Below the pieces are notes generated by a model that saw only the letters and a list, made by a program, of their open reading frames with translations, made no database searches and was not told the DNA's origin. Positions 162 to 38,009 of a DNA stretch of 38,206 nucleotides are shown here, in pieces (the stretch's first letter is position 1; each line of letters starts with the position of its first letter). This DNA is from an uncultured Thermoanaerobaculia bacterium (lineage in GTDB: Bacteria > Acidobacteriota > Thermoanaerobaculia > Thermoanaerobaculales > Sulfomarinibacteraceae), in the NCBI GenBank assembly GCA_964408845.1, contig CAYPBC010000001.1, positions 1 through 38,206 on the forward strand, given 5' to 3'. A program made the position numbers and the translations under genes.

Positions 162-1265
162 TCAATCGAGGTAGCGGCCGGAGTTTGGCTTGTGGCCCGA
201 GGAATCCCCGTCAGCGCCGGTCTGGTGCTCGATGACAGGCAGTTTCCGGTCAGGATCAAGCTCCAGGAGCTCACGGCGATGATCCGCGAGAGGATTGGCG
301 CCCAGGACGCGGCCGGAGCTTTCCAGAAACGAATACATGTCGGTGCATCCGCAGCGGGTCATTGGGCAGGGCACTGGACCGGCAAAGAGCCGCGGTAGGC
401 TCTCGTCGAAAAAAGACCCGGCGACCTCGGAATGACACCCCACATGGATACGGCCTGCAGCATCCATCTGGTAGGCGATGCCGGGGAAGAGGCAACGCCG
501 GCCCCGCGGCGATTTTTTTAATGCCCGGTATTGATAGTCGACCTCCTTCGGGAGGTAGCGGCGGAGGAGAGCCAGCTCGTCGGCATCATAGTAGCCCGAG
601 GGCCCCCAGAGCGGGTTGGGGTACAGAGCGATACCCTGTTCGCGGAACAGCTTCCACCTGCGTTCAAAGTCGCTCATGTTCTCGCGGGTGAATACATAGT
701 TGACCTGTCCAATATTGAATCCCTCGGCCCGGAGAACCTCGAGCCGGCGAAGGAACCCAGACTCATCGATCTGACTCGGGTGGAATGTACACATCAGGAT
801 CAACTTCCGGCGGTCGACCTGCCGAAAGGGAAGTGGATCCCAGCGAGCGTTCGTGTCGATGCGGATGGACTCCACTCCGGCCATCGTTGTGAGTGCCACA
901 AGAAGCTTCGGCATCGACTGCCGGTCGAGCATGGGTTCGCCACCGGTGAGAACCAGAGTTGCCCTCTGATCCGAGAAGTGATTCCCAAACGCCTCGATCC
1001 AACGAGCGACCGAGTAGTTGTCGAAAGCGTGCGCCGTGAAGTGCTCGCCGAGCGGCGCATCCCGCTTATGGTTCTGGGGGCAATATGGGCAGCTGTAGTT
1101 GCACCAGCGCGTCAGCTGCCAGCGCAACAGCACCAGCCGTCTCTCCTGGGCGGGCTTCCAGATTGCCAGGAGATCCCGAAACTTCGCGCGATCCCGCCAG
1201 CTCATCCGGCGATATGGCGAGAACAGGTTCCAGAATCTCCGGCGGGTCCTCAACTGGTCAAGCAT
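162..1265 (-). CDS. Radical SAM enzyme with Cys-rich C-terminal (SPASM/twitch-like) region
   Basis: ORF 162..1727 trimmed to ATG 1265 (MLDQLRTRRRF...), because the upstream part only mirrors the neighbouring gene region. CX3CX2C motif read directly (RWCNYSCPYCPQ). GGEP-type SAM motif (LTGGEPML). C-terminal Cys cluster PCPMTRCGC. Alternative start ATG 1205. Protein ends ...SGRYLD. Confidence 0.8.
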   Translation of the reverse strand: MLDQLRTRRRFWNLFSPYRRMSWRDRAKFRDLLAIWKPAQERRLVLLRWQLTRWCNYSCPYCPQNHKRDAPLGEHFTAHAFDNYSVARWIEAFGNHFSDQRATLVLTGGEPMLDRQSMPKLLVALTTMAGVESIRIDTNARWDPLPFRQVDRRKLILMCTFHPSQIDESGFLRRLEVLRAEGFNIGQVNYVFTRENMSDFERRWKLFREQGIALYPNPLWGPSGYYDADELALLRRYLPKEVDYQYRALKKSPRGRRCLFPGIAYQMDAAGRIHVGCHSEVAGSFFDESLPRLFAGPVPCPMTRCGCTDMYSFLESSGRVLGANPLADHRRELLELDPDRKLPVIEHQTGADGDSSGHKPNSGRYLD

Positions 1266-1496
1266 GCACTGGATGATACAAGATCGCCGGCTTCCGTGGG
1301 GGGATCGAAGGTTTTGAACTTGTCCGACGGCGGTCGCCCGCGGAATGCCGCCAACAGGGGAACGGCCCGAAAACGCGAGAGTTCTGGTGACAATCGATCG
1401 ACTGAACGGCCTGTCTTGGACCCCCGAGAGAGTGGGTGTGCTACGTTGGCCGCGGGTCGGCGTGCCCTCATCCCTCAAGAGGAGATCCAACCGACA

Positions 1497-2897
1497 ATGA
1501 AAACCACAAACCGACTGGCGCTGTTTCTTTTCCTCGTTCCGGTCGTAGGTGGTGTCTGTGTCATGATCGGCTGCGGAGCTAGCGACGAGGCGGCTTTCGA
1601 CGACAAGCTGAACCTGATCATCATCTCGCTCGACACGCTGCGGGCCGACCACCTTGGATCGTATGGGTACGAGAGGAATACAAGTCCGAATATCGACCGA
1701 TTCGCAGGAGAATCGACCCTCTTTCAAAACTCGTTTTCAAACTCCAACTGGACACTCCCATCCCACATGTCCTTGATGACCTCGCTGTATCAGACCGAAC
1801 ACAATGTCGTCGGCAAGACAAACAAGCTGTCAACCAGGATTCCGACGCTCGCCGAGGTGTTGAAGCGCGAGGGATACCATACCGCGGCGTTCACTTCCGG
1901 TTACTTCGTTGACCGGAAGTTTGGATTCGACCGGGGATTCGACGTCTACCACCAGTCGTATGACTTTCAGCGTCAGAATAGTGGCCAGGGCTGGCGCCTC
2001 GAGCATCTTGAAAAAGACCTCTTCTCGTGGCTGGATACCCATAGTCAAGAGGATTTCTTTCTCTTTGTCCACAGCTACGATGTCCACGAACCGTTTATTG
2101 CGCACCAATACCTTGAGGAGTTTAGCCCGGATTACAGCGGATGGGCGACCAATCTCCACAACATGGAGAGGTTCAAAGCGAGCCCCGAGTACAAGGCTTA
2201 CGTGGAAAGCGAAGGAGTGAGATACTTCAACATCAATCTCTATTACCAAAAGGTCATCAACGCGGGTCTGATCGAACTTACCGATGCTGACCGCGACCAC
2301 CTGGTGGCCCTGTATGACAACGAGGTGCGGTTTGCAGACGAGTACTTCGGCCGCCTCCGGCAGAAGCTGGAAAGTCTCGGCCTGTGGGAGAACACGGTCA
2401 TCGTGTTGTGGTCTGATCATGGTGAGGAGCTCTTCGAGCGCGGTGGGATTCGGCATGGAGGACAGCAGCTGCACGACGAGGTACTCCGGGTACCGTTGGT
2501 GATTCGGATCCCGGGGGTTGAGCCGAAGGTCACGCCCGAACTCGCCCAGGGAATCGACATCGCACCGACCGCTCTCGATATTCTAGGTATCGCACCCGAG
2601 ACCTCGTTTGCCGGAACGTCGCTCTTCGACGAAGGCGCTTCGAACGCATTTGTGATCGCAGAAGGGAAAGACTGTGAGTGCATCCGGACAGATAAGTGGA
2701 AGCTCAGCGCCCTCAGGGATGGCCGCATTTTCGAGCTCTTCGATCTGGAAGACGATCCGGATGAGAACTCCAATCTGGTGATGAGCCGTTCCGACCAGGT
2801 GACAGAGCTGACCTCCCTGTTGAACGAGGCACTCAACCGGATGGTGACAGACGAACAGATGCGGCAACAGCTCGAAGCCCTCGGTTACCTCGATTGA
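1497..2897 (+). CDS. Sulfatase-family (alkaline phosphatase superfamily) lipoprotein, Thr-nucleophile type
   Basis: ORF 531..2897 trimmed to ATG 1497, with GAGGAG about 12 nt upstream. N-terminus MKTTNRLALFLFLVPVVGGVCVMIGC is a signal peptide with a lipobox-like IGC. Family hallmarks: IIISLDTLRADHLG, WTLPSHMSLMTSLY (Thr codon 1752-1754), VLWSDHGEEL, LRVPLVIRIPG, FELFDLEDDPDENSNL. Ends QLEALGYLD. Confidence 0.85.
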   Translation: MKTTNRLALFLFLVPVVGGVCVMIGCGASDEAAFDDKLNLIIISLDTLRADHLGSYGYERNTSPNIDRFAGESTLFQNSFSNSNWTLPSHMSLMTSLYQTEHNVVGKTNKLSTRIPTLAEVLKREGYHTAAFTSGYFVDRKFGFDRGFDVYHQSYDFQRQNSGQGWRLEHLEKDLFSWLDTHSQEDFFLFVHSYDVHEPFIAHQYLEEFSPDYSGWATNLHNMERFKASPEYKAYVESEGVRYFNINLYYQKVINAGLIELTDADRDHLVALYDNEVRFADEYFGRLRQKLESLGLWENTVIVLWSDHGEELFERGGIRHGGQQLHDEVLRVPLVIRIPGVEPKVTPELAQGIDIAPTALDILGIAPETSFAGTSLFDEGASNAFVIAEGKDCECIRTDKWKLSALRDGRIFELFDLEDDPDENSNLVMSRSDQVTELTSLLNEALNRMVTDEQMRQQLEALGYLD

Positions 2898-2980
2898 GTT
2901 GCGTAGGTGTCAGGACCCAAGTTCAGAATTTCAGGGTTGAAAGATGAGTGTCCGATAGATCCGCGTGGTTGCCTGAGGTG

Positions 2981-3847
2981 ATGATGAAACTGCTTGATCT
3001 CCTACAGCCGTCTCATTCCAGAGCGAACAAGAACATCGTGGTTTTTGGTGCCGGCCGCAGCGGGACGACATGGCTTTCCCAGATTATCGCCAGCGCCGGC
3101 CTCGAGTTCGTGTTCGAGCCTCTCAACCCGGGCGAGGTCCCGGAGGCCAAGGTCTTGAAACCGCTTCCCCTTTATTGCCGAAAGCATGATGCCTTCGAGT
3201 GGGAGGAACTGTTCACGAGGATGATAAACGGTGAGGTTCGGAATTCCTGGACCATTCGCTTGAACCCGGGCGCGGAACGGAAGGTAATCAAGTTCATCCG
3301 CGCCAACCTGCTGATTGAGTGGATCCTTCACAACTTCGACGTCCATCCAGTCTTCATCATCCGAAACCCCCTGGCCGTCGTGGCGTCGATCAAGGAACAG
3401 GGATGGGAGTTGGAGGCCGGGTGGGTTCAAGATGTCCTCACCTCACCACGCCTCAAGCAGCCGTTCTTCTCGAGGATTCCGGAGGTGTCGGAGTGGGTGT
3501 CTCGGGATCTCACTGATGCCGAGGTCAAGGCGCTCTACTGGTGCATTCATAATTACGTTCCGAGGAGACTGGGCTGTTTTAGCAAGCTCCATCTCGTGCG
3601 GTACGAGGAGCTGTGTCAGGATCCCGACAAGGTGTTCGGGACGCTGGCACCGAAGATCGGCATTGAGATGACAGAGAGCATACGGTCTGCGTTCACCAAG
3701 CCGTCGTTGATGCGCGGCAAGCGGCAGGGAAGCAAGGGTTACGACCCGAGAAGAGCCTGGAGAGACGTGCTCTCCCCGGAGGATGTCGAGGCGGTCAAGC
3801 GGATCGTCGGGGCCTTCGGGCTCGAGAGGTACATCGACGACGCCTGA
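2981..3847 (+). CDS. PAPS-dependent sulfotransferase family protein
   Basis: 5-prime PSB loop FGAGRSGTTWLSQ and 3-prime PB-like IIRNPLAVVASI read by eye. The ORF track starts at GTG 2948; ATG 2981 (MMKLLDL) is preferred because GAGG lies just upstream. No signal peptide. Confidence 0.8.
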   Translation: MMKLLDLLQPSHSRANKNIVVFGAGRSGTTWLSQIIASAGLEFVFEPLNPGEVPEAKVLKPLPLYCRKHDAFEWEELFTRMINGEVRNSWTIRLNPGAERKVIKFIRANLLIEWILHNFDVHPVFIIRNPLAVVASIKEQGWELEAGWVQDVLTSPRLKQPFFSRIPEVSEWVSRDLTDAEVKALYWCIHNYVPRRLGCFSKLHLVRYEELCQDPDKVFGTLAPKIGIEMTESIRSAFTKPSLMRGKRQGSKGYDPRRAWRDVLSPEDVEAVKRIVGAFGLERYIDDA

Positions 3848-3869: not shown

Positions 3870-4721
3870 TCACCACCCGTCGTCGGACTCGTAACCCAAT
3901 TCGATGAGAAGATCTCCGGCCAGTTCCTTGACGATATCCTTGGCCTCGTTGGTCGTGAGGTGGTTCCTCCAGTCTCCAACGACGCCCTTGCGGAAAAGAG
4001 GGCGGACGGTTTTCGCCCGCTCCAGGTGCTCGGCGAGAGGCCTCGGTTCGTCGGCCCCCGGCGATTGAACCAGGTCCGCGTCGGTCAGGCCGAGACCGCT
4101 GAACTCGAGAACCCGGCGCACGGTGGCCTCGAAATCCTCGATCAGGTGCTCGTACGTCAGGCGCAGATGCGGGATCTTCGCTCTTCGCAAGAGCTTTTCG
4201 CACTCCAGGGTCGCCCGGCAGTTCTTCACCGCATGCCACAGGTACGACCAGTGCCGCAGGTACTCACTATCGCCGATTTGCTCGTTTGGCTCGCTGTCCC
4301 CGAGCACCTGCTGGTGGAAGAACTGGAGCGATACGAAAATGTCTCGGGGGTCCCTGTACATGATGACGATACGGGAATCTCGAAAGACATCGTAGTACCG
4401 AGGGAAGGCGAGGACGTTGGATGGTGACTTGTCGATGAGCATCTTGAGATCGGGGTGTCGCTCCCGCTGGAGACGGTAGAGCTCTCTCAGCTTGTCGAGC
4501 GGGCTCAGCGTGGCGTTCTCTCGGACTCGAAGAAACGCGGGGTCGTCGGCCGTCCTCCGATTCCACTGCTTCTCGAGCGGGAACTCGAGAAAGAAAATGA
4601 AATCGAGCTCGCCTGGGGGGGCGAGGAAGGGCCGGACCGACAGCGCCTTGGCCAGCCAGGTGCTGCCGCATTTTCCCGGATTGAGTATGAACAGGTAATC
4701 GCAGAGGGGATCGGTCGCCAT
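3870..4721 (-). CDS. PAPS-dependent sulfotransferase family protein (second, divergent paralog)
   Basis: PSB loop LNPGKCGSTWLAKAL, DKSPSN, and 3-prime PB motif YRDPRDIFVS. Convergent with the first sulfotransferase across a 22-nt gap. No signal peptide. Confidence 0.8.
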   Translation of the reverse strand: MATDPLCDYLFILNPGKCGSTWLAKALSVRPFLAPPGELDFIFFLEFPLEKQWNRRTADDPAFLRVRENATLSPLDKLRELYRLQRERHPDLKMLIDKSPSNVLAFPRYYDVFRDSRIVIMYRDPRDIFVSLQFFHQQVLGDSEPNEQIGDSEYLRHWSYLWHAVKNCRATLECEKLLRRAKIPHLRLTYEHLIEDFEATVRRVLEFSGLGLTDADLVQSPGADEPRPLAEHLERAKTVRPLFRKGVVGDWRNHLTTNEAKDIVKELAGDLLIELGYESDDGW

Positions 4722-15905: not shown

Positions 15906-16757
15906 TTACGACCTCGCTCTGGCGTCTTCAGGCGTCTTTTCAAGAATAAATTCTATCGCCCAAGTGCTCAAATCAGCTATCGAAAACTCCTCTGAGAGTG
16001 CCCGCAAGGTGTCCTCGTCCGGTGTCTCATCGTAGATTCGCTTAAAGGATACACAGCGCAATTTCGAGGCAATGGCCATCTCTTCGATATCCGAAGGTGA
16101 AAGACGGTTCAGATTTTTCGAAAAATGGATGTGTTCTACAATCTTCTTCACGTGATCTGGTGGAACGCAGCGCTCGACAAGTCGTTCGTGGAACTCAACA
16201 GGTGAGAATTGGAGATGCTCCCAGGCATTCACCGGCTGTTCGTCGCCACTTCCATTAAAGAAATACCTGGTCCCATCCTCCGCAACAGTCCACAAGTGGT
16301 GGCCTTTCGAACCAGTCCATACGGGCCCGCCGTGGATAAGCGCCCTACCACCAGGTTTGAGCAATTCGGCGATCTTGTCGAGGACCGAAGGGATGTTCAG
16401 GATGTGTTCAATCACGCACGTGCTAAGGACGATGTCAATGCACCCGGTCTTGATATCGACATCCTCAGCAAACGACCCGTAAAGGCGGACATGAGGGTTA
16501 TTAAACTCTTGAATCTTTGTTTGATACCAGGGCTCAGCAAACCAGGGATTTGCCACGATCACATCTTCTGCACCCAATGCGAGACAGGCTAATGCTTCGT
16601 GTTCGGTTCCACCAACTATGAACACTCTTCCGTGAATACCCGGGTTTCTTGAAGCTCTTTGATAAAACGATCTCAAGTAAGGGTGTAACCCGTCAACTCG
16701 GTTCAGAGGCGATTCACCCAAAGAGTCTGTTTGCGACATCTTCTTCTGTTCTTTCAT
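15906..16757 (-). CDS. Class I SAM-dependent methyltransferase (low-GC gene)
   Basis: Motif I-like VFIVGGTEHEA, IDIVLSTCVIEH, LKPGGRALIHG. GC is visibly lower than the flanks, with AGA and TTA codons. Confidence 0.75.
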   Translation of the reverse strand: MKEQKKMSQTDSLGESPLNRVDGLHPYLRSFYQRASRNPGIHGRVFIVGGTEHEALACLALGAEDVIVANPWFAEPWYQTKIQEFNNPHVRLYGSFAEDVDIKTGCIDIVLSTCVIEHILNIPSVLDKIAELLKPGGRALIHGGPVWTGSKGHHLWTVAEDGTRYFFNGSGDEQPVNAWEHLQFSPVEFHERLVERCVPPDHVKKIVEHIHFSKNLNRLSPSDIEEMAIASKLRCVSFKRIYDETPDEDTLRALSEEFSIADLSTWAIEFILEKTPEDARARS

Positions 16758-31056: not shown

Positions 31057-34000
31057 TCAGTCGAGGTAGCCGAGGGTTCGAAGCTGCTCGATGGTCTCCT
31101 CCGACAGCTCGACCTCGGCCGCTTTGTCTCGCTGGCCCCAGGAGTCGCTGGAGGCCAGCAGCGCTGCGAGATGCCCATGGAGCCGGGTGAACACCTCCGG
31201 GCGGGTGTGAACGAGGTTTCGTCTCTGCTCCGGGTCCTCGTCGAGATCCACCAGAACGCACTGCGAGGGATCGGAGCGTTTCAGATCTAGGAAGTCGGTC
31301 GTGCAGAGGGGAAGATCCGCAACGCGGTGGTTCCCAAGGTCCGCTTTGACTACCTCTCTCCCCTCGTCGTTCCCGGTTGTGACCACAAAGGGTCCGCGGC
31401 TGTTCGAGTAAAGGCTGGGCCACCTCTCTGCCAGGCGAAGCTTGAGCGAGAGGCCCACGGTCCCCGGCTCGAGCTCGAGGCGAATCGTCTCCACAACCGC
31501 CTCCCCCATCTCCCAGGCGTGGGTCGGCCGCTGCTCGCCGCCGACAAACCACCACAGCCACCGCTCGGTCCGCTCCCCCGAGGTCGGGACCATCGAGGCG
31601 GCGAGCTTGCCCGAGAAGGTGTGGGAGGAGGCAGCCTCGGCCTCCCAGTACAGCGTCAGGTAGACGCAGGAATCGCCACGGCACAGATCGAAGCCGGTGA
31701 GCGACACCAGATCGCCGAACCGGGTCAGTCTGGCATGCACCGGAGTCAACAGCGCCAGATCGGTGGCAGCATCTCGCTCACCGAGATCGGTGAGCTCGGT
31801 GAGAGCAGAGGGGTGGAATGGAGTCTTTTGTACGCAGTTTCGGAGAAGCTCCCGTCGCTCGCCCTCGGTCCGGGCGATCTGAGCCAGGAGGAAGTCCAGA
31901 TGTCCCTGGCTGGGAAAGCGTTTCGCCAGCGCTTCAAGCGCCGGGCGCTCGCTGGGCCCGGCGTGGAAACCGGGCGGCAGCCGCAAACTCTCGATCCCGA
32001 GCTGGTCACGTTTGTGGGCCAGAAGACTCTCGGACCGGGACCCGCAAACCTCGAGGGTGGTCATGGGAACCGGATCCACGGCCGTGACGACTCGCTTCCA
32101 CCAGAAGAGCTTCGAGTGGTCCAGCAGGCCGACCTGCACCCGGTGGGCTCCTCGGCACGACGAGGCCGGCACGGTCCACCAGAACGAGTCCTCGAAGTCG
32201 AGTGATCCGTGGGAGAAGGTCGTGTCCTCGATCTTGGAGTCCTCGACGAGAGGCTGAGGCTCGGCCCCTTTCTCCAGGACACGACGAAAAAAGGTCCTGG
32301 CCTCGCTGATCGTCACCCGGTTCTGCGGGTCGACCAGCTCGACGAGGATGCCGACCTCCTTACCGACATTGCGGTGGGCGCGCCAGTGGAGAGTGATGTA
32401 GACCGCGTCGCCGGGACAGGCCACCGGAGGCTCTGCCGTGACCGCCAGGATCTCCAGAACATCACTCAACCGCCGGGGGTTCTCCACGGGCGCGGTCAGC
32501 ACTCCGAGCCAGCCGGTCTCCGGAGGTCCGGACCCTGTGCCGGTCCATCCGGCACCCTCCACGATCAGTCGCTTGGCTGCCCTCTCCTCGGAGACCGTTA
32601 TCTCACCTTCGAACTCCCCACCAGAGAAGGTGCCGAGGGAGACCACCGACGTCGCGGTCGTCCGGACGCGGAGAGCCAGCCGTCCCGTCTCGTCGTCGGT
32701 GCGCAAGGTTCCGGAAAATCGAAGCTTCGACCCGGGGGTCACCAGGCGGCGGTGGAGGGCGAAATTCTCCAAAACCACACCGTCGCAGATCTTAAGGCGC
32801 CGACGCAGGGCGCCCGGAGGCACCGGCAGTGGCGTCCCGGCGACGGTGGAGGCCGCCGACTCCGCCGATCGGACCTCCATGAGGTGTCCACTGCCGAAGC
32901 GGGCCCCACCGTTGTAAATCAACCGCCATTGACCCGACGTCAGCGCCCAAGCGCTCTCGGACCTTTCCAGGCCTTCCTGGCTTACCACCACCCTCTCCGG
33001 AGACCCCTCTCCAAGGAGGGACTCGTTCATCATCCCAAAACGCACTGGCCCGCCCGCCAGCTCGAGAATCGTGGGGCCGAGATCGAGATGTGAAACGGGT
33101 CGCGTCATCGTGACCGGACCGGTTGACTCGGTGTCGTGGAGGATGAGCGGTACGTGCAGGATCTCGTCGCTCAGGATCATCCCGTGATCGCACATCAGTC
33201 CGTGTTCACCCAAGCCCTCGCCGTGATCGCTAGTCACGATGAAAACCGTGCGACGGCTCCCCCGAATTTCCAGCCATCTCGCGAAGAAGCCTGCAGCCAG
33301 AGAATCGGCGTAGGCGATATTCGCCTCGTACCGCTGTTGGTAATCGAGGAGATCGACTCCGAGCCCCACCTTCGCCTGATACCAGGGGATCCTCCCGAGA
33401 ACACCGGCCGCCAGGGAGACCCTCGCCCCATCGCGGTCGTGGTGGGCGAGGTGGCCGGCGACCGGCATCGGCCGGCCTTTTGCCTGCCGAAGGAACCGAT
33501 CCGGCGCCTTATATGGTCCGTGGGGCGGCCAGTAATGGATATAGACGAAGGCAGGCCGGGGGCCGCCCAGGGACCTCACCCAGGCCATGCAGTCGTCGGT
33601 CAAACGAGGGCCGAAATCACTGTCCTTGGCGGCCTCAATGGACACATGATCAAAGTGCTCCTCCATGCCGAAACCTTCGCCGATGGCAGGGTTCGCCGTG
33701 AAGAAGCCGGTGTGATAGCCGGCATCACCGAGGTGACGCGCAAAGCTGGGGTGATCGCGCGGGAAGGCCTTGTTGATTCGCCATCCGCGGTGTTCGAGGG
33801 GCGGAAGCCCGGTGAGAATGCTGGTGACTGACGGTCGGGTCCAGGTGGCTGCCGAATGGCAGCGGTTGAACAGGGTGGACCGCGCGGCGAGATCGGAGAG
33901 GAACGGCGCCGTGTCCCACTGATGCCCGTAGAACGGCAGCGACCGCGCGCGCAGGGAGTCGAGAACGAGGAGCACGATGTCGGGACGACCGTCACCGGGA

Positions 34001-34110
34001 GGAAGATCTCCGAATCTCCCACACCCGGCCAGGCCGAGGCCCAGCGCGGAGACACCCAGACCTTGGAGGAAGCCGCGACGGGAGAACTCTGTGCCAGGAT
34101 TACCTTTCAC
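31057..34110 (-). CDS. Large Tat-exported lipoprotein: sulfatase-family (Thr-nucleophile) catalytic domain with ~540-aa nested insertion
   Basis: GTG start with GGAG upstream. SRRGFLQGLGVSALGLGLAGC is a twin-arginine motif plus lipobox. IVLLVLDSLRARSL, ATWTRPSVTSILTGL (Thr codon 33838-33840), VTSDHGEGLGEHG, LHVPLILHD. The canonical end LVDLDEDPEQRRNLV...EQLRTLGYLD is separated from the core by an insertion at about 31278-32898. Confidence 0.8.
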   Translation of the reverse strand: MKGNPGTEFSRRGFLQGLGVSALGLGLAGCGRFGDLPPGDGRPDIVLLVLDSLRARSLPFYGHQWDTAPFLSDLAARSTLFNRCHSAATWTRPSVTSILTGLPPLEHRGWRINKAFPRDHPSFARHLGDAGYHTGFFTANPAIGEGFGMEEHFDHVSIEAAKDSDFGPRLTDDCMAWVRSLGGPRPAFVYIHYWPPHGPYKAPDRFLRQAKGRPMPVAGHLAHHDRDGARVSLAAGVLGRIPWYQAKVGLGVDLLDYQQRYEANIAYADSLAAGFFARWLEIRGSRRTVFIVTSDHGEGLGEHGLMCDHGMILSDEILHVPLILHDTESTGPVTMTRPVSHLDLGPTILELAGGPVRFGMMNESLLGEGSPERVVVSQEGLERSESAWALTSGQWRLIYNGGARFGSGHLMEVRSAESAASTVAGTPLPVPPGALRRRLKICDGVVLENFALHRRLVTPGSKLRFSGTLRTDDETGRLALRVRTTATSVVSLGTFSGGEFEGEITVSEERAAKRLIVEGAGWTGTGSGPPETGWLGVLTAPVENPRRLSDVLEILAVTAEPPVACPGDAVYITLHWRAHRNVGKEVGILVELVDPQNRVTISEARTFFRRVLEKGAEPQPLVEDSKIEDTTFSHGSLDFEDSFWWTVPASSCRGAHRVQVGLLDHSKLFWWKRVVTAVDPVPMTTLEVCGSRSESLLAHKRDQLGIESLRLPPGFHAGPSERPALEALAKRFPSQGHLDFLLAQIARTEGERRELLRNCVQKTPFHPSALTELTDLGERDAATDLALLTPVHARLTRFGDLVSLTGFDLCRGDSCVYLTLYWEAEAASSHTFSGKLAASMVPTSGERTERWLWWFVGGEQRPTHAWEMGEAVVETIRLELEPGTVGLSLKLRLAERWPSLYSNSRGPFVVTTGNDEGREVVKADLGNHRVADLPLCTTDFLDLKRSDPSQCVLVDLDEDPEQRRNLVHTRPEVFTRLHGHLAALLASSDSWGQRDKAAEVELSEETIEQLRTLGYLD

Positions 34111-34128: not shown

Positions 34129-34881
34129 TTATTGCCCCGATACTGTCGTAGTGTAGTCCGAGATGACCTGCTCGGTCGGTCCGATGGTCTTCATGACGCC
34201 GCGGTCCAGGAAGAGCGCGCGGTCGCACAGTGCGGTGACCATCTGGAGACCGTGGGAGACCAGAAGCACCGTGGCGCCGTTTTTTCGGAAGCTCTCGATT
34301 CGCGTCGTGCACCGGCGGCGGAACTCCTCGTCTCCGACCGACATGATCTCGTCGAGCAGCAGGACATCAGGCTCGACGTCGGTCGCGATGGCGAAGCCGA
34401 GCCGGGCACGCATGCCCGTCGAGTATGTCCGCAGCGGCGAATCGATGAACTCTTCGAGCCCGGCGAAGTCGACGATGTGGTCGTACCGGGCCTGCATGTC
34501 GTGGTAGGAGAAGCCGAGGGTCGCGCCGCTCAGGAAGATGTTCTCTCTGCCGGTGAGCTCGTCGTTGAATCCAGCTCCCAGGCCGAGCAGGGGCGCTACC
34601 AGTCCCCGGACCACGACTCTTCCACCGGTTGGTCTCAGCACCCGAGCAATCACCTTGAGAAGAGTCGTTTTGCCGGCGCCGTTGCGGCCGACGATGCCGA
34701 ATACCTCACCCGAGTCGACCGAGAACGACACGTCCCGCAGTGCCCAAAAATCGGTGATCATCAGGTTCCGCTTCAGACGGCGAATCGCGTACTCCTTGAT
34801 CGAGCCGACCTTTTCGTGCGGCACGCGATAGCACAGCGACACCCGGTCGACATCGATCACTGGGGGAGGGGAGACCGCCAT
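34129..34881 (-). CDS. ABC transporter ATP-binding protein, polysaccharide/teichoic-acid export type (Wzt/TagH/KpsT-like, no C-terminal carbohydrate-binding domain)
   Basis: Walker A GRNGAGKTTLLK, signature-like YSTGMRARLGFA, Walker B VLLLDE. 250 aa. Confidence 0.9.
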   Translation of the reverse strand: MAVSPPPVIDVDRVSLCYRVPHEKVGSIKEYAIRRLKRNLMITDFWALRDVSFSVDSGEVFGIVGRNGAGKTTLLKVIARVLRPTGGRVVVRGLVAPLLGLGAGFNDELTGRENIFLSGATLGFSYHDMQARYDHIVDFAGLEEFIDSPLRTYSTGMRARLGFAIATDVEPDVLLLDEIMSVGDEEFRRRCTTRIESFRKNGATVLLVSHGLQMVTALCDRALFLDRGVMKTIGPTEQVISDYTTTVSGQ

Positions 34882-34882: not shown

Positions 34883-35773
34883 TCAGGCCCTCAAGGCGAA
34901 CTGGTAGGAGCGCCGCGAGAATACCCACCACCCGACGAGGAGCGTGCCGACGGACCAGACGAGGGCCTTGAGGACCGAATCCATCGGCGGCAGGGCGCCG
35001 CGATAGATCGGTTCCCGCCAGCACAGCATCATGTCATAGAGGGGATTGATCTTGACCAGCCAGATGAGTCGCTCGGGCACGATTTCCTCGGGGTACATCA
35101 CCGGCGTCAGGTAGAAGAGAGCGCGGACGATGACGCCCCACATCTCCACCACATCGGAGAAAACCACTGCAATGCTTGACAGGATGAGGCCGACGCCTAG
35201 GGAGAACATCGCCGCCATCGCCATTGCCGCGGGGACGAACAGCAGTGTCCAGTTCAAGGGCTGCTTGAAATAGAGAGTGATCAGCAGCAGCGGAACGAGG
35301 GTCAGCCCGAGGTTGACCAGGGCGGTGCCGACGGCCGAGATCGGGAAAACGGCGGCCGGAACGTAAACCTTTTTGAGCAGGGCGCTGCCCCACAACAGAG
35401 AGGTCATGCTCTGGGTTGTGCTCTCCTGAAAGAAGTTGAAGAAGACCAGGCCGGCGAGCACGTACACCGGGTAATTCGGCACCGAGAACCTGAAGATGGC
35501 GGAGAAGGCGACGGTGATCACGATCATGGTCAGCAGCGGGCTGAGCAGGGTCCACGCCACGCCGAGCACCGAGCGTTTGTACCGGGCCTTGATGTTGGTG
35601 GCGATCAGAAGTCGTAGAAGATCCTTGTAACGGATCAGCTCCACGACAGCTTCGCGCATCGGACTGCCGTCCGTCGCGGCGGAATCGTAGACGGGCGCGG
35701 TGCGCACGGCATCGGTCCCCATGTCCCCACCCGGGGGTGTGCTCGCCGTCTTAGGCATTATGCGGTTTCCCAT
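34883..35773 (-). CDS. ABC-2 type transporter permease (Wzm/TagG/KpsM-like)
   Basis: RYKRSVLGVAWTLLSPLLTM motif followed by about six hydrophobic segments. The stop lies 1 nt before the ATPase start. The start is uncertain (35773, 35758 or 35722); the two longer choices overlap the upstream gene. Confidence 0.85.
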   Translation of the reverse strand: MGNRIMPKTASTPPGGDMGTDAVRTAPVYDSAATDGSPMREAVVELIRYKDLLRLLIATNIKARYKRSVLGVAWTLLSPLLTMIVITVAFSAIFRFSVPNYPVYVLAGLVFFNFFQESTTQSMTSLLWGSALLKKVYVPAAVFPISAVGTALVNLGLTLVPLLLITLYFKQPLNWTLLFVPAAMAMAAMFSLGVGLILSSIAVVFSDVVEMWGVIVRALFYLTPVMYPEEIVPERLIWLVKINPLYDMMLCWREPIYRGALPPMDSVLKALVWSVGTLLVGWWVFSRRSYQFALRA

Positions 35774-38009
35774 TGTGCGAGGTTACACCAGAGCGATCCG
35801 ATGTCGCCCCGTCCTCTCCCTTCCACTTCGCGAGAAACCGCCGTCGATTGGCCTCGTAGATCCGCGCATACTCCTCCTCGGGAAGGGCGCCGAAGCTGGC
35901 CTCCTGAAAGTGGTGGACCCAGGCGCCGCGTAGGCAACGGATGTCGTACCCTGCTTGGCGGATGCGCCGGCTGAAGTCGTCGTCCTCGAAGAGCCCGACC
36001 TCGAAGCGCTCGTCGAGGCCACCCACCGCCCCCCAAACCTCTCGCCGGAGCGCTGCACAGTAGAGCGCCAGCATGGGGATGGGGAAGCTCTCCTGATCGT
36101 GGTCCCACACGTAGCGTTCGGCCCACTCGGGGAGCCCGGCCAGATCGCGGTACCCCGGCGTCACTCTCGCCTCGTTGGCGACGCCGTTCGAGGAGGGACC
36201 CACGAGGCCGAGCTTCGGATCTCTCATGAGGGCGCCGACCATGGCCGACAGCCACCCGCGGGTGACCACGGTGTCGTTGTTGAGCAGACAGAACACCTCG
36301 CCCTGTGCCCCGGCGAAGGCCTGGTTGCAGGCGGGGGCGAAGCCCCGGTTGGAGCGGTTGAGGATGACCCGCAGCTTCGGGCGCCGTGCGGCCTCGTCCT
36401 CGAGCCATGCGGGAGTTCCGTCAGTGGATGCGTTGTCGACGACGACGATCTCGTAGCTGGGGTGCACGGTACAGCGCTCGATGCTGTCGAGGCACAGCTC
36501 GGTCAGCTCGCGGTTGTTGAAGGTGACGATGCCGATGGTGACCGCCGGGAAGAGCTTTTCGAGCGCCCTTTCGAGCTCGGCGGCGCGAGTATCCCAGGTG
36601 TTGGCGCGGGCGAAGGCGAGGCGCCGGTCGTGCGCCTCACCGCCGGATGGGGCCTCGAGAACCTCCTCGATGGCTCCGAGAAAGCCCTCGACTCCCTCGG
36701 CGAGACGGACAAGATCGCCGTGCGCTTCCATTTCGGGCAGCGGCGGCGCGACGACCTCGAGTCCGAGGGCCATCATCTCGTAGAGCTTCACCGGGTCCAT
36801 GGCCTCGGTCAGGGGTGTTCTCCGGCGCGGGATGATGCCGACATCAAACGCGGCCGCCAACGCCGGAAGCTCCTCGTAGGGACGCTCACCCAGAAGGTGG
36901 ACGTTCGGCAGAATCGCGAGCCTGGAGGTGTCGGCTCCCCAGGTCGAGCCGATGAGCACGAAGGACCAGTCGGGGCGGCGGGTCGCCAGTCCGACCACCA
37001 GCTCGGTGTCGAACCACTCCGAGATGGCGCCGAAGTAGCCGATGATCGGTCTCGGGATGTGCTCGAGATCGGGCGACGGCGACGCGCCCTCCCAGTGACC
37101 GGGATCGCAGGCGTTGGGCAGTCTGAGAGCCTTCAGGTTCGGCAACCCGTCGATCTTCTCCAGGACGCCGGACGATGCCGTCACCAGATCGGCCTCCTCG
37201 AGAAGCAGTCGCTCCTCCTCCTCCGCCGAAGCGCCTGTAGTGGAAAACCCCTGGTGCAGGTCCATCCGGTCGTAGACCACCGGCCATCCGAATTCCTCCC
37301 TCAACCGGAGGGCGAGGGGGCGCCAGAGGGGGGAGTGGCACAGGACGACGCCTTGGTGAATTCGTTCACGGCGCCGGAGCACGGCGAACGCCCGGACCAT
37401 GAGGGCGACGTCGTCCACACGCAGGTCATCCTCTCCCACCGTGAGGGATTTCCGGCCGGGCAGGGTGATGGTCCGGACGGCCTCGGCCACCGGCTCGGGA
37501 TGTATGGCGATCTCCTCTGCACCCACTCCGAGATCCGGGTTGGCGTAGAGAACCGGCCAGCCGCCGGCGGCGAGGCGCGCGAGGAGGTGGTGCGGCCGCT
37601 GTACCCGCAGGAACCAATCGATGAGAGGCAGGCAGATGATCGTCGGTCGAGGCGGCGGCGCCTCGTTCGCGGGTGCGGCTGCGGACCGGAAGAAGGCTTC
37701 ACGGTCCGCCGAGGAGCGCGCGCCGGTACCGGCTCCGCGACCCATGGCTCGGAGCAGTCGCGCCCGGAGACGGTAGGGGAGGGCCCGTGAGGCGAAGGTG
37801 CGCAGAGAGTCGAACGGGTGGAGGAGACGGTGCCGCCAGAGGTCGATCTCGAGCCCGAGGCGCCGGCGCCGAGAGGTGTGACCCGCTGCCGGCCGATTCT
37901 GTGCAGGCTCCGAGCACCCATCGTCCGGCCGGTGCTGGAGTTCGGGATCGGAGTTCTCGCGATACTCCGCAGAGGAGTCATCGGGGTGGGCCCCGTGGTT
38001 GTCCGTCAT
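35751..38009 (-). CDS. Two-domain glycosyltransferase (GT1/GT4-like N-terminal module + GT2 C-terminal module) with ~120-aa low-complexity leader
   Basis: The N-module has RVQRPHHLLARLAAGGWPVLYAN ... IGYFGAISEWFD ... LIGS ... LGERPYEELP (TuaH-like GT1 pattern). The C-module has VTIGIVTFNNRELTELCLDSIERC...EIVVVDNASTDGT, LLNNDTVV and FEDDDFSRR. Confidence 0.8.
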   Translation of the reverse strand: MTDNHGAHPDDSSAEYRENSDPELQHRPDDGCSEPAQNRPAAGHTSRRRRLGLEIDLWRHRLLHPFDSLRTFASRALPYRLRARLLRAMGRGAGTGARSSADREAFFRSAAAPANEAPPPRPTIICLPLIDWFLRVQRPHHLLARLAAGGWPVLYANPDLGVGAEEIAIHPEPVAEAVRTITLPGRKSLTVGEDDLRVDDVALMVRAFAVLRRRERIHQGVVLCHSPLWRPLALRLREEFGWPVVYDRMDLHQGFSTTGASAEEEERLLLEEADLVTASSGVLEKIDGLPNLKALRLPNACDPGHWEGASPSPDLEHIPRPIIGYFGAISEWFDTELVVGLATRRPDWSFVLIGSTWGADTSRLAILPNVHLLGERPYEELPALAAAFDVGIIPRRRTPLTEAMDPVKLYEMMALGLEVVAPPLPEMEAHGDLVRLAEGVEGFLGAIEEVLEAPSGGEAHDRRLAFARANTWDTRAAELERALEKLFPAVTIGIVTFNNRELTELCLDSIERCTVHPSYEIVVVDNASTDGTPAWLEDEAARRPKLRVILNRSNRGFAPACNQAFAGAQGEVFCLLNNDTVVTRGWLSAMVGALMRDPKLGLVGPSSNGVANEARVTPGYRDLAGLPEWAERYVWDHDQESFPIPMLALYCAALRREVWGAVGGLDERFEVGLFEDDDFSRRIRQAGYDIRCLRGAWVHHFQEASFGALPEEEYARIYEANRRRFLAKWKGEDGATSDRSGVTSHNGKPHNA

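What the first reader, a model, noticed from the sequence alone, without database searches (positions are those of the whole stretch)
162..38009. Radical-SAM-rich, sulfotransferase-bearing glycan assembly and tailoring supercluster
One 38-kb stretch combines many tailoring functions. It has seven glycosyltransferase domains in six proteins, two PAPS-type sulfotransferases, a pyruvyl transferase and two methyltransferases. It also has a CapK-like adenylating enzyme and five intact radical SAM enzymes, each with CX3CX2C read directly, plus one disrupted copy. Four alkaline-phosphatase-superfamily or PhoD-type exported enzymes and two export routes complete the set. Bacterial carbohydrate sulfotransferases are uncommon, and I know of no characterised polysaccharide pathway with this many radical SAM tailoring enzymes. 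The predicted product is a heavily decorated polymer (sulfated, pyruvylated, methylated and possibly C-modified). The window lacks an initiating phosphoglycosyltransferase, Wzy/Wzc/Wza, PAPS synthesis genes and nucleotide-sugar genes, so the locus probably extends beyond it.
Basis: partly seen in the sequence, partly recalled or inferred. Interest (0 to 1): 0.75.

Follow-up and report, generated by a model that had tools for sequence, protein, structure and literature searches.

The report
Radical-SAM-rich surface glycan locus beside SLH proteins
This is a real, evolutionarily conserved gene cluster of uncultured Acidobacteriota that builds a decorated cell-surface sugar polymer; the pyruvate groups it probably carries may anchor the surface proteins encoded next to it, and a set of radical enzymes in it has unknown chemistry.

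Summary
The cluster is not a chance juxtaposition. At least 14 contigs from Thermoanaerobaculia/Holophagae-type Acidobacteriota keep a collinear core: GT-C, GT4, GT4, methyltransferase, B12-type rSAM, rSAM, pyruvyl transferase, GT2, CapK/PaaK-like ligase, ThiH/HydG-like rSAM, Wzx, and an alkaline-phosphatase-fold enzyme.

Three corrections apply.
- The three "Sulfatase"-family proteins lack the Cys/Ser-x-Pro-x-Arg formylglycine motif and have Thr at the nucleophile position, so they are not classical sulfatases.
- The sulfotransferases, the left-end rSAM/AP pair, the PhoD-like gene and a block carrying DAHP synthase are lineage-specific accessories.
- The flanks do not hold the "missing" Wzy, Wzc, Wza or initiating-transferase genes.

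The right flank encodes a large protein ending in three SLH domains. SLH-trimer proteins sit beside this pyruvyl-transferase locus in about eight differently arranged relatives.

My best reading is therefore a pyruvylated wall-associated glycan that anchors SLH proteins (CsaB/SLH logic), found in a Gracilicutes-type phylum and carrying an uncharacterised radical-SAM/ligase tailoring cassette. I rate it a new variant of a known kind, of moderate to high interest.

The parts
162..1265 (-). Radical SAM protein (rSAM_L), weakly STM4011-like. It is an accessory gene of the window lineage.
   Evidence: PF04055 31.7 bits; CNYSCPYC motif; NF038073 83.8 bits against a cut-off of 200. Found only in near-identical contigs. 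The start is uncertain: 1133, 1205 or 1265.
1497..2897 (+). AP-superfamily 'Sulfatase'-family protein Sulf1. It has a signal-like N-terminus and Thr at the nucleophile position.
   Evidence: PF00884 174 bits. No C/SxPxR motif; the corresponding sequence is WTLPSH. N-terminus reads MKTTNRLALFLFLVPVVGGVCVMIGC; the protein ends LGYLD.
2948..3847 (+). Sulfotransferase-like protein ST1.
   Evidence: PF13469 28.9 bits and PF00685 26.2 bits. GRSGTTW and RNPLAVVAS motifs. Homologs at 43-54% identity lie in L019, L020, L036, L057 and L058.
3870..4721 (-). PAPS-type sulfotransferase ST2. It is an accessory gene.
   Evidence: PF13469 68 bits and PF00685 56 bits. Matches SULT structures. Carries PGKCGSTW, YRDPRDIFVS and RKGVVGDWRNH motifs. 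Absent from relatives.
5439..6842 (+). AP-superfamily enzyme Sulf2. It has no signal peptide and is a member of the conserved core.
   Evidence: PF00884 151 bits. The alignment to sulfatases puts Thr and Phe where the FGly Cys and Arg lie. Sits next to Wzx in 12 or more relatives at 55-65% identity.
6890..7960 (+). DAHP synthase fused to a C-terminal chorismate mutase domain.
   Evidence: PF00793 136 bits and PF01817 64 bits; NCBIfam DAHP synthase models 166-194 bits, below their cut-offs of 268-335. Present at this position only in the window lineage and in L008/L011.
8425..9345 (-). Conserved hypothetical protein (hyp306).
   Evidence: No Pfam or NCBIfam hit. 74% identical homolog in L008/L011.
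9428..10717 (+). GT4 glycosyltransferase GT4a. It belongs to the accessory block.
   Evidence: PF00534 110 bits and PF13439 77 bits. Shared only with L008/L011.
10660..11667 (+). Radical SAM/SPASM protein. It belongs to the accessory block and is not an anSME.
   Evidence: PF04055 35.5 bits and PF13186 35.1 bits; CSADCVFC motif. No anSME model among the NCBIfam hits.
11674..13188 (+). MOP-family (Wzx-like) flippase.
   Evidence: PF13440 228 bits. NF007773 225 bits against a cut-off of 273. About 11 hydrophobic segments. Conserved next to the ThiH-like gene even in Aminicenantes and a PVC-group MAG.
13246..14457 (-). ThiH/HydG-like radical SAM enzyme. It is the signature gene of the cassette.
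   Evidence: PF04055; CENKCSYC motif. ThiH model 125.8 bits against a cut-off of 380. HydG 4wcx E=5e-29 and ThiH 7pd1. 224 homologs at E<=1e-10, the best 120 of them at 53-95% identity.
14592..15881 (+). CapK/PaaK-like adenylate-forming ligase.
   Evidence: NCBIfam DVU_1553 family 131 bits and PaaK 110 bits, both below cut-off. PDB PaaK 4r1l E=7e-23. CapK_C annotation. Always adjacent to the ThiH-like gene.
15906..16757 (-). Class I SAM methyltransferase MT1 (weak match).
   Evidence: PF08241 29.6 bits. A methyltransferase occupies the same position in L009 and L010. In L008 a NodZ-like gene and a UDP-sugar dehydrogenase replace it.
16905..17858 (-). GT2 glycosyltransferase.
   Evidence: PF00535 105 bits. 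Core member at 56-65% identity.
17855..19204 (-). Ketal pyruvyl transferase; its best family match is CsaB.
   Evidence: PF04230 113 bits. TIGR03609 CsaB 113.5 bits against a cut-off of 213; WcaK 90 bits. Core member at 49-90% identity.
19289..21730 (+). PhoD-like metallophosphatase with a signal-like N-terminus. It is inserted inside the core.
   Evidence: PF09423 34 bits. Among relatives found only in L046 (90% identity), at the same position.
21727..22860 (-). Radical SAM enzyme rSAM_M with a Cys-rich C-terminus (twitch/SPASM-like).
   Evidence: PF04055 50.6 bits; CNARCVMC motif. Core member. Fused to the B12-rSAM as one 733-aa protein in L008.
22857..24329 (-). B12-binding-domain radical SAM enzyme.
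   Evidence: PF04055 96.6 bits and PF02310 45.8 bits; CPYHCSYC motif. Best solved relative is AprD4 6fd2, E=1e-19. HpnJ 119 bits and PhpK 96 bits, both below cut-off.
24326..25171 (-). Class I SAM methyltransferase MT2.
   Evidence: PF08241 78 bits. Core member.
25153..26355 (-). GT4 glycosyltransferase GT4b.
   Evidence: PF00534 131 bits. Core member.
26352..27593 (-). GT4 glycosyltransferase GT4c.
   Evidence: PF00534 150 bits. Core member.
27685..29721 (-). GT-C fold membrane glycosyltransferase (ArnT/PMT-like) with a C-terminal beta-rich domain.
   Evidence: PMT_2 22.5 bits. AlphaFold model pLDDT 81.9; Foldseek top hit ArnT 5f15 E=1e-9, followed by STT3, PglB and Emb. Invariant S44-x-D46-G47 after TM1. 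Conserved in L044-46, L055 and L061.
29839..31035 (+). Pseudogene of a second B12-binding radical SAM enzyme.
   Evidence: Compared with the intact 467-aa L046 copy (78-82% identity), the window copy has lost about residues 11-77 and changes frame near 30172-30185. The same sequence occurs in L047.
31057..34110 (-). 1017-aa AP-superfamily protein Sulf3. It has a Tat-like/lipoprotein-like N-terminus and a ~650-aa C-terminal extension.
   Evidence: PF00884 132 bits. SRRGFLQ...LAGC at the N-terminus; WTRPSV in place of CxPxR. 76% identical in L046 and L056.
34129..34881 (-). ABC transporter ATPase (TagH/Wzt-like).
   Evidence: PF00005 81 bits. TagH-type 193 bits and galactan Wzt 190 bits, both below cut-off.
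34883..35773 (-). ABC-2 permease (Wzm-like).
   Evidence: PF01061 60.5 bits. Galactan Wzm 84 bits.
35751..38009 (-). 752-aa protein combining a GT1-like and a GT2 domain.
   Evidence: PF00535 83.5 bits and PF13692 35 bits. 56-87% identical in L045, L046 and L053-L059, always followed by the ABC-2/ABC pair.
38130..38204 (-). Last 24 codons of a large surface protein (1072 aa or more) that ends in three SLH domains.
   Evidence: The window reads PTTRAQMAKMVVVSIGLPMCDVPE*. The near-identical contig L048 supplies the rest of the protein. PF00395 58 bits; three SLH repeats.

Best explanation
The window holds most of a conserved cell-envelope glycan locus from an uncultured Thermoanaerobaculia/Holophagae-like Acidobacteriota bacterium.

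What it most likely makes: a pyruvylated, otherwise decorated, wall-associated glycan. This glycan would serve as the ligand for the SLH-domain surface proteins encoded beside it. That is the CsaB/SLH secondary-cell-wall-polymer logic, rather than a free exopolysaccharide.

Proposed steps. Only the first clause of each is shown; the rest is inferred.
1. Cytoplasmic GT4, GT2 and GT1/GT2 enzymes build lipid-linked glycans. The initiating transferase is encoded elsewhere.
2. While the glycan is still lipid-linked, several enzymes add non-carbohydrate or C-modified decorations. These enzymes are a CsaB-like PEP-dependent pyruvyl transferase, two SAM methyltransferases, and a conserved cassette. 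The cassette comprises a ThiH/HydG-like rSAM, a PaaK/CapK-like adenylating ligase, an AprD4-like B12-domain rSAM and a twitch-type rSAM.
3. A TagGH/Wzm-Wzt-like ABC transporter and a MOP (Wzx) flippase move two kinds of intermediates across the membrane.
4. An ArnT-like GT-C enzyme joins them on the outer face.
5. Thr-nucleophile alkaline-phosphatase-fold enzymes and a PhoD-like enzyme process or transfer phosphoester groups. They are not classical sulfatases.
6. In this lineage, two PAPS sulfotransferases add sulfate as an optional extra.
7. SLH trimers bind the pyruvate-ketal epitope.
For: - Domain inventory.
- Collinear core in at least 14 relatives at 45-90% identity.
- Gene fusions support functional coupling: B12-rSAM with rSAM in L008, and pyruvyl transferase with GT4 in L062.
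- Overlapping start and stop codons along 21727-27593 and 34129-38009 suggest operons.
- The pyruvyl transferase's best named family is CsaB.
- An SLH-trimer protein lies immediately beside the locus in the window lineage (L048), L045, L046/L054 (three in a row), L053, L055, L056 and L061. In L062 the SLH protein sits among a UDP-GlcNAc-2-epimerase-type gene and a PyrT-GT4 fusion.
- The SLH repeats carry TRAQ motifs.
- Published precedent: SLH proteins bind pyruvylated SCWP made with CsaB, and the csaB loci lie next to SLH protein genes (PMC6030368; bioRxiv 10.1101/2021.05.31.446380).
- GT-C fold of 27685-29721.
- The ABC ATPase is closest to wall-polymer exporters TagH and galactan Wzt.
- The PF00884 proteins lack the FGly motif.
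Against: - The pyruvyl transferase scores 113 bits against a CsaB equivalog cut-off of 213. It could equally be an EPS-type enzyme of the WcaK or EpsO kind.
- No TagO/WecA, TagA, MnaA or LCP-ligase homolog is present in the window or its sequenced flanks.
- SLH adjacency was seen only in relatives of one lineage, so shared ancestry inflates the count.
- CsaB/SLH systems are reported as practically absent from Gracilicutes. This makes the reading either interesting or less likely a priori.
- The chemistry of the rSAM/ligase cassette is entirely unassigned.
- All the data come from metagenome contigs. No expression or product data exist.
Confidence: 0.5

Rival explanations
1. The locus makes a secreted or capsular exopolysaccharide that is sulfated, pyruvylated, methylated and radical-SAM-modified. 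The two export systems serve one free polymer.
For: - The window contains a Wzx-like flippase, several GT4 and GT2 enzymes, a pyruvyl transferase and sulfotransferases.
- The GT4 enzymes give weak hits to EPS and PEP-CTERM-associated GT families.
- Pyruvyl transferases of the WcaK type also score 90 bits.
Against: - No Wzy, Wzc, Wza or initiating transferase is found in the window. None is found in the sequenced flanks (L001, L048) or at the cluster borders of relatives.
- The sulfotransferases are not part of the conserved core.
- SLH-protein genes are consistently adjacent.
- The transporter is closest to wall-polymer exporters.
Confidence: 0.2
2. The locus is an S-layer/surface-protein glycosylation (slg-type) cluster. 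The glycan is built on a lipid carrier and exported by the ABC transporter. The GT-C enzyme then transfers it onto the adjacent SLH-domain protein.
For: - It lies next to large SLH surface proteins.
- The GT-C model matches protein-glycosylating enzymes (STT3, PglB, PMT) as well as ArnT.
- ABC-2-dependent glycan synthesis with methyltransferases is typical of S-layer glycan clusters in Bacillales. This last point rests on my own knowledge.
Against: - The best structural match is ArnT, a lipid-modifying enzyme, not an oligosaccharyltransferase.
- No Wzy_C/WsaB/PglL-type O-oligosaccharyltransferase is present.
- This reading does not explain the conserved CsaB-like pyruvyl transferase.
- The core is also present where no SLH gene lies within 10 kb (L044).
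Confidence: 0.15
3. The locus is an LPS O-antigen or other outer-membrane glycolipid locus of a diderm Acidobacteriota. Its two arms are alternative ABC-dependent and Wzx-dependent O-chains, and the GT-C enzyme is a periplasmic modification enzyme.
For: - A Wzm/Wzt-like pair follows a bifunctional GT.
- A Wzx flippase is present.
- The GC content is mosaic (0.54-0.68), and accessory genes vary between relatives, as in O-antigen loci.
- The GT-C resembles ArnT.
Against: - No WaaL ligase, Wzz or Wzy is present.
- The core stays collinear down to about 55% identity, which is atypical for hypervariable O-antigen loci.
- The SLH linkage is left unexplained.
Confidence: 0.1
4. The window is a chance juxtaposition of unrelated operons, for example a sulfatase/sulfotransferase island, an aromatic amino-acid gene and several independent glycan operons. 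There is no common product.
For: - The modules are separable. The ABC arm occurs without the core (L057, L058), and the core occurs without the arm (L044, L061).
- The left 5 kb and several insertions are lineage-specific.
- The GC content is heterogeneous.
Against: - The 11-12-gene core is collinear in at least 14 relatives.
- The whole right half, including the PhoD-like insertion and the second B12-rSAM, is reproduced in L046.
- Gene fusions link neighbouring genes.
Confidence: 0.05

Closest known systems
CsaB/CsaA-SLH system for pyruvylated secondary cell wall polymer (Bacillus anthracis csaAB; Paenibacillus alvei csaB-tagA-tagO locus next to spaA/slhA)
   Same: Both have a PF04230 pyruvyl transferase whose best family match is CsaB, and a Wzx-like flippase. 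In both, the locus lies directly beside genes for proteins with a terminal SLH trimer.
   Different: - The host is a diderm phylum of the Pseudomonadati/Gracilicutes, where CsaB/SLH is reported to be nearly absent.
- No TagO, TagA or MnaA gene is present in the window.
- The CsaB equivalog score is not reached.
- This locus adds an ABC exporter, a GT-C enzyme, three to five rSAM enzymes, a PaaK-like ligase, AP-fold enzymes and sulfotransferases.
Streptococcal rhamnose-polysaccharide (Group A carbohydrate, gac) type pathways with extracytoplasmic decoration. Comparison from my own knowledge; not tested here.
   Same: One wall-glycan locus combines an ABC-2 exporter, a Wzx-type flippase, a GT-C transferase acting outside the membrane, and a PF00884 Thr-nucleophile enzyme (GacH-like).
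   Different: - The PF00884 proteins here lack the N-terminal multi-TM domain of LtaS and GacH. One of them (Sulf2) has no signal peptide at all.
- There are no rhamnose genes.
- The rSAM cassette and the pyruvyl transferase have no counterpart.
ThiH / HydG tyrosine-lyase radical SAM enzymes
   Same: 13246-14457 aligns over about 340 residues with HydG (4wcx, 5e-29) and ThiH (7pd1), and it has the CX3CX2C cluster.
   Different: - It scores 126 bits against a ThiH cut-off of 380, and 85 bits against 312 for HydG.
- It is not in a thiamine or hydrogenase context.
- It is always paired with a PaaK-like ligase and a Wzx flippase.
- It forms a separate family.
AprD4 and cobalamin-domain radical SAM sugar/lipid tailoring enzymes (AprD4, HpnJ, PhpK, GenK-type)
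   Same: 22857-24329 has the B12-binding plus rSAM architecture. Its best solved relative is AprD4, which modifies an aminoglycoside sugar.
   Different: All family cut-offs are missed by a wide margin. The reaction type (methylation, dehydration or rearrangement) is unknown.
S1 formylglycine sulfatases with anSME maturases
   Same: The three AP enzymes share the PF00884 fold and C-terminal SGSH_C-like region, and are closest in sequence to S1 sulfatases. A rSAM/SPASM gene lies nearby.
   Different: - The Cys/Ser-x-Pro-x-Arg motif is replaced by Thr-containing sequences in all three.
- The rSAM/SPASM protein does not match the anSME model.

Membership tests
CsaB/SLH pyruvylated cell-wall-polymer anchoring system | Ketal pyruvyl transferase of the CsaB type | tested here: inconclusive
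   PF04230 113 bits, above the gathering score. TIGR03609 CsaB is the best NCBIfam hit, but its 113.5 bits fall below the 213.1 cut-off.
CsaB/SLH pyruvylated cell-wall-polymer anchoring system | Proteins with a terminal trimer of SLH domains encoded in the same genome, typically nearby | tested here: met
   The flanking gene carries PF00395 at 58 bits and three repeats (window 38130-38204 plus L048). The same arrangement occurs in L045, L046/L054, L053, L055, L056, L061 and L062.
CsaB/SLH pyruvylated cell-wall-polymer anchoring system | TagO/TagA-type initiation, UDP-ManNAc supply, and LCP ligation to peptidoglycan | tested here: not met
   None of the scanned window ORFs or flanks gave such a hit. 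An Epimerase_2 gene lies beside the SLH protein only in L062. These genes could lie elsewhere in the genome.
CsaB/SLH pyruvylated cell-wall-polymer anchoring system | Pyruvate-ketal-dependent binding of SLH domains to the polymer | not testable with these tools
   Requires biochemistry.
Wzx/Wzy-dependent EPS or capsule locus | Wzx flippase together with a Wzy polymerase, a Wzc/Wza export apparatus and an initiating phosphoglycosyltransferase | tested here: not met
   Only the Wzx-like protein is present. The large membrane protein has a GT-C fold and is not Wzy. The flanks of the window and of relatives hold unrelated genes.
ABC-transporter-dependent glycan export (Wzm/Wzt, TagG/TagH) | Adjacent ABC-2 permease and ATPase next to a polymerising multi-domain GT | tested here: met
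   PF01061 60.5 bits and PF00005 81 bits. TagH 193 bits, galactan Wzt 190 bits and Wzm 84 bits, all below equivalog cut-offs. The pair always follows the GT1/GT2 fusion.
Formylglycine (S1) sulfatases | Cys/Ser-x-Pro-x-Arg motif at the nucleophile position | tested here: not met
   The motif is absent from all three PF00884 proteins. In the alignment of Sulf2 to sulfatases, Thr replaces Cys and Phe replaces Arg.
PAPS-dependent sulfotransferases | PF00685/PF13469 domain with a 5'-PSB loop and a 3'-PB motif | tested here: met
   ST2 scores 68 and 56 bits and carries PGKCGSTW, RDPRDIFVS and RKGVVGDW motifs. ST1 is just above threshold (28.9 bits) and carries GRSGTTW and RNPLAVVAS.
Radical SAM superfamily | PF04055 domain with a CX3CX2C cluster motif | tested here: met
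   Five intact ORFs score 31.7-96.6 bits against a cut-off of 29.5, and each has the motif. The pseudogene fragment scores 80.6 bits and has CPYACAHC.
ThiH / HydG equivalogs | Score above the curated equivalog cut-off, plus a thiamine or hydrogenase-maturation context | tested here: not met
   125.8 bits against 380 for ThiH, and 85.2 against 312 for HydG. The context is a glycan locus.
GT-C glycosyltransferases | Multi-TM GT-C fold with an acidic residue in the first outer loop | tested here: met
   Model pLDDT 81.9 and pTM 0.82. Foldseek matches ArnT at E=1e-9, followed by STT3, PglB, ALG and Emb. D46 is invariant after TM1.
Anaerobic sulfatase-maturating enzyme (anSME) | rSAM/SPASM protein matching the anSME family, with a sulfatase substrate carrying C/SxPxR | tested here: not met
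   The best NCBIfam hits of 10660-11667 are unrelated maturases at 44 bits or less. No substrate motif is present.

The most novel reading that the evidence does not exclude
A cassette comprising a ThiH/HydG-like rSAM, one or two PaaK/CapK-like ligases, a B12-domain rSAM, a methyltransferase and often a twitch-type rSAM is always linked to a MOP flippase. It is conserved from Thermoanaerobaculia to Aminicenantes and a PVC-group MAG. In the most novel reading, this cassette installs a previously undescribed non-carbohydrate substituent on a lipid-linked sugar. The substituent could be an amino-acid-derived fragment that is ligated and C-modified. The resulting pyruvylated polymer would be the anchor of an SLH-protein surface layer in a Gracilicutes-type phylum. 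That would be an independent or laterally acquired CsaB/SLH envelope system with new glycan chemistry.
Probability: 0.3. Interest if true: 0.8.

Novelty: new variant of a known kind. Interest (0 to 1): 0.55.

Why it matters
If this reading is right, it matters in three ways.

1. It extends the CsaB/SLH anchoring principle into Acidobacteriota. That principle is thought to be a hallmark of Terrabacteria envelopes and is used in arguments about outer-membrane tethering and the diderm-to-monoderm transition.

2. It defines a widely conserved, wholly uncharacterised radical-SAM/adenylating cassette dedicated to glycan tailoring. Very few radical SAM enzymes are known in polysaccharide pathways. 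A ThiH/HydG-type enzyme in a glycan locus has, to my knowledge, no precedent.

3. It warns against annotating the many 'sulfatases' of these sediment and soil Acidobacteriota as sulfate-ester hydrolases. The ones here lack the formylglycine motif, which affects inferences about sulfated-glycan degradation in metagenomes.

Tried and rejected
- **anSME idea.** I considered that the rSAM/SPASM gene matures the neighbouring 'sulfatases'. I rejected it because there is no anSME model hit and no C/SxPxR motif.
- **Wzy idea.** I considered that the 678-aa membrane protein is the missing Wzy polymerase. I rejected it because the fold is GT-C, ArnT-like.
- **Assembly-artefact idea.** I considered that the disrupted B12-rSAM is an assembly error. 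This is unlikely, because the sequence is identical in a second assembly.
- **RNA elements.** An Rfam scan at gathering thresholds found no family match, so no known riboswitch or other structured RNA was detected, and the tRNA scan found none.
- **Literature.** Searches for a characterised homologous locus (CapK + radical SAM; Acidobacteria EPS + sulfotransferase; ThiH + flippase; Thermoanaerobaculia + S-layer; radical SAM + pyruvyl transferase) returned nothing relevant.
- **Failed look-up.** An exact-sequence look-up of the GT-C protein failed, probably because the gene caller used a different start.
- **GT2 as GtrB/ArnC-type synthase.** PDB sequence search gave only weak similarity to DPMS, GtrB and ArnC, behind ordinary GT2 enzymes. 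The question remains unresolved.
- **ORF 4868-5401 (hyp177).** It has no family hit, no homolog in relatives and a low-complexity translation. It is probably not a gene.
- **High-GC relatives L056/L057.** Simple ORF tiling was unreliable there, so I did not pursue it.

Full report
**1. Observation**

The window is high in GC, and the GC content varies between 0.54 and 0.68. I tiled the long ORFs and scanned them against Pfam and NCBIfam.

Radical SAM (rSAM) genes:
- Five intact rSAM ORFs each pass the PF04055 threshold and carry a CX3CX2C motif. Their motifs are CNYSCPYC, CSADCVFC, CENKCSYC, CNARCVMC and CPYHCSYC.
- One of them also has a SPASM domain, and another has a B12-binding domain.
- A sixth copy, at 29839-31035, is broken. 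I compared it with the intact 467-aa ortholog in relative L046. The window copy has lost about residues 11-77 right after MAKVLFLQQT, and it changes frame near 30172-30185.
- The same sequence, without a single gap, occurs in a separate assembly (L047). It is therefore a real pseudogene.

Other functions:
- Glycosyltransferases: three GT4 enzymes, one GT2, one GT1-like+GT2 fusion, and a 678-aa membrane protein. The membrane protein's PMT_2 hit is sub-threshold. Its AlphaFold model (pLDDT 81.9, pTM 0.82) matches ArnT (E=1e-9), followed by STT3/PglB, ALG and Emb/Aft enzymes. It is a GT-C enzyme, not Wzy.
- ST2 (3870-4721) has textbook PAPS-binding motifs and matches SULT structures. ST1 is weaker but also carries the motifs.
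- The CapK-like protein is a PaaK-type adenylate-forming ligase.
- The window also encodes a pyruvyl transferase, two methyltransferases, a MOP/Wzx flippase and an ABC-2/ATPase pair.
- No tRNA or Rfam element is present.

**2. The 'sulfatases' are not sulfatases**

All three PF00884 proteins lack the Cys/Ser-x-Pro-x-Arg formylglycine motif. In the HMMER alignment of Sulf2 to solved S1 sulfatases, Thr replaces the catalytic Cys and Phe replaces the Arg.

They are therefore Thr-nucleophile alkaline-phosphatase-fold enzymes. By analogy with NPP, LtaS and EptA, I infer that they handle phosphoesters. That analogy rests on established knowledge of the superfamily and was not tested here.

Consequently the nearby rSAM/SPASM protein has no anSME role, and it does not match that family either.

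Sulf1, Sulf3 and the PhoD-like protein have signal-like N-termini ending in Cys; Sulf3 has a Tat-like SRRGFLQ. Sulf2 has none.

**3. Source and synteny**

Proteins from the window occur identically on short contigs from several metagenomes. These contigs extend the window by 3.1 kb on the left (L001) and 2.7 kb on the right (L048).

Homologs of the ThiH-like rSAM are named Acidobacteriota, Thermoanaerobaculales, Holophagae or Aminicenantes MAGs.

I ran tblastn with all window proteins against 33 genome loci and several metagenome loci, and used the gene tables. Together these give a clear picture.

The conserved core:
- At least 14 contigs keep the collinear order (GT-C)-GT4c-GT4b-MT2-B12rSAM-rSAM_M-PyrT-GT2-(MT)-CapK-like-ThiH-like-Wzx-Sulf2, at 45-90% identity. 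The CapK-like, Wzx and Sulf2 genes lie on the strand opposite to the other core genes.
- In L008 the B12-rSAM and rSAM_M are fused into one 733-aa protein. This argues for a joint function.

The right arm:
- L046 reproduces the whole right half of the window: GT1/GT2, ABC-2, ABC, the 1017-aa AP enzyme, an intact second B12-rSAM, and the GT-C.
- L046 also has the PhoD-like gene inserted between rSAM_M and PyrT.

The locus is nonetheless modular:
- The ABC arm exists without the rSAM core in L057 and L058.
- The core exists without the arm in L044 and L061.
- ST2, rSAM_L with Sulf1, and the PhoD-like gene are missing from most relatives.
- A lower-GC block (DAHP synthase/chorismate mutase, hyp306, GT4a, rSAM/SPASM) sits between Sulf2 and Wzx only in the window lineage and in L008/L011.
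- ST1-like genes recur near the locus in five relatives.

In distant taxa only a mini-module survives. In an Aminicenantes chromosome it is Wzx | ThiH-like, B12-rSAM, CapK-like, CapK-like, MT. In a PVC-group MAG it is Wzx, AP-fold enzyme, ThiH-like..., CapK-like, MT, PyrT.

**4. Borders**

This is not what the flanks show.
- On the left are one more AP-fold gene and an M28 peptidase.
- In relatives the Wzx/Sulf2 end abuts Mrp antiporter genes.
- On the right, the last 75 bases of the window are the 3' end of a gene for a protein of 1072 aa or more. Its C-terminus carries three SLH repeats, with TRAQ motifs in the second and third.

**5. The SLH link**

I built an HMM from these repeats. It finds an SLH-trimer ORF immediately upstream of the GT1/GT2-ABC arm in L045, L046/L054 (three SLH proteins in a row), L053, L055 and L056.

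In L061 a 1576-aa ortholog lies directly upstream of GT-C and the rSAM core, with no ABC arm in between.

In L062 the ortholog lies between a UDP-GlcNAc-2-epimerase-type gene and a pyruvyl-transferase-GT4 fusion.

The window's pyruvyl transferase matches CsaB best, although below the equivalog cut-off.

Published precedent supports this kind of linkage:
- Pyruvylated secondary cell wall polymer is the ligand of SLH trimers.
- csaB loci lie next to SLH protein genes (PMC6030368).
- Acidobacteriota belong to the Pseudomonadati.

The most economical reading is therefore a wall-associated, pyruvylated glycan that anchors SLH proteins. I give this a probability of about 0.5.

The two 'export routes' then resemble wall-polymer pathways in which an ABC exporter, a flippase and a GT-C enzyme cooperate. 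That comparison, to streptococcal rhamnose polysaccharides, rests on my own knowledge. The ATPase's best hits are TagH and galactan Wzt.

Rival readings:

| Reading | Probability |
|---|---|
| Free EPS | 0.2 |
| Glycosylation of the SLH protein itself | 0.15 |
| O-antigen | 0.1 |
| Chance juxtaposition | 0.05 |

**6. The radical SAM cassette**

- The ThiH-like enzyme aligns with HydG and ThiH but falls far below their family cut-offs.
- The B12-domain enzyme's best solved relative is the sugar-modifying AprD4.
- rSAM_M has a Cys-rich C-terminus of the twitch/SPASM kind.

None can be assigned a reaction.

My working hypothesis is low-confidence. The ThiH-like enzyme generates or rearranges a small amino-acid-derived unit. 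The PaaK-like ligase attaches it to a sugar carboxylate or amine. The other two rSAM enzymes C-modify the sugar. Two hints fit this but do not establish it: a UDP-sugar dehydrogenase next to the ligase in L008, and the DAHP-synthase/chorismate-mutase gene in the accessory block.

**7. Comparison and novelty**

No paper in the searchable library describes such a locus.

The assembly and export logic and the pyruvylation/SLH logic are both known kinds. Three things are new:
- the host phylum;
- the combination of CsaB/SLH-type linkage with an ABC exporter, Wzx and GT-C;
- the conserved rSAM/ligase cassette.

I classify the finding as a new variant of a known kind, with interest 0.55. The main caveats are that all evidence is comparative and comes from metagenome contigs, that the SLH association is drawn from one lineage, and that the key enzymes miss every curated equivalog threshold.

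Noticed in passing
window 2873-2897, 6819-6842, 31057-31083; also L001, L008, L012-L020, L030, L033, L035-L039, L046, L056: Every AP-superfamily protein in these loci ends with the same extreme C-terminal tail, (R/Q)L.(A/T/S/D/N)LGY[LI](D). This includes a PF01663-type enzyme in a PVC-group MAG. Of 1107 ORFs of 250 aa or more, 33 end with the searched tail pattern; 31 of them are these AP enzymes. The other two are the left-end rSAM (window and L001 copies), which end GRYLD. The function of the tail is unknown.
   Followed up: partly
window 29839-31035: The second B12-domain rSAM is a pseudogene, with a ~68-codon deletion that removes much of the B12 domain plus a frameshift. It is identical in an independent assembly and intact (467 aa) in relative L046. 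This suggests recent loss of one tailoring step in this population.
   Followed up: yes
window 6890-11667: A lower-GC block (0.54-0.58) sits between Sulf2 and Wzx only in the window lineage and in L008/L011. It contains DAHP synthase/chorismate mutase, a conserved hypothetical protein, GT4a and an rSAM/SPASM protein. A shikimate-pathway entry enzyme travelling with glycan-tailoring genes hints at supply of an aromatic precursor. It could also simply be the organism's housekeeping copy.
   Followed up: partly
window 162-2897: The left-end rSAM is weakly STM4011-like (84 bits). The divergently transcribed AP-fold protein next to it gives a weak STM4013/SEN3800 hit (26 bits). This echoes an uncharacterised Salmonella rSAM/AP-enzyme pairing.
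   Followed up: no
L008 1282-3483; L062 20039-22531: Two gene fusions occur in relatives: B12-rSAM fused to the neighbouring rSAM (733 aa), and pyruvyl transferase fused to a GT4 (830 aa). These are Rosetta-stone-type support for functional coupling of the neighbouring genes.
   Followed up: partly
L024 8194-16191; L033 6717-16397: A compact mini-module persists in an Aminicenantes chromosome and a PVC-group MAG without the surrounding glycosyltransferases. It contains a Wzx flippase, a ThiH-like rSAM, a B12-rSAM, one or two CapK-like ligases and a methyltransferase, with or without an AP-fold enzyme and a pyruvyl transferase.
   Followed up: partly
window 4722-5438: A 717-bp divergent intergenic region lies between ST2 and Sulf2. 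The ORF called there (4868-5401, 177 aa) has no family hit, no homolog in relatives and a low-complexity translation. It is probably non-coding and may hold divergent promoters.
   Followed up: partly
L054 1-9881: One relative carries three consecutive genes for SLH-trimer proteins upstream of the glycan locus; one of them is about 1750 aa. Orthologs elsewhere are ~1570-aa CarboxypepD_reg-repeat proteins. These are candidates for an S-layer or a large surface array in these Acidobacteriota.
   Followed up: partly
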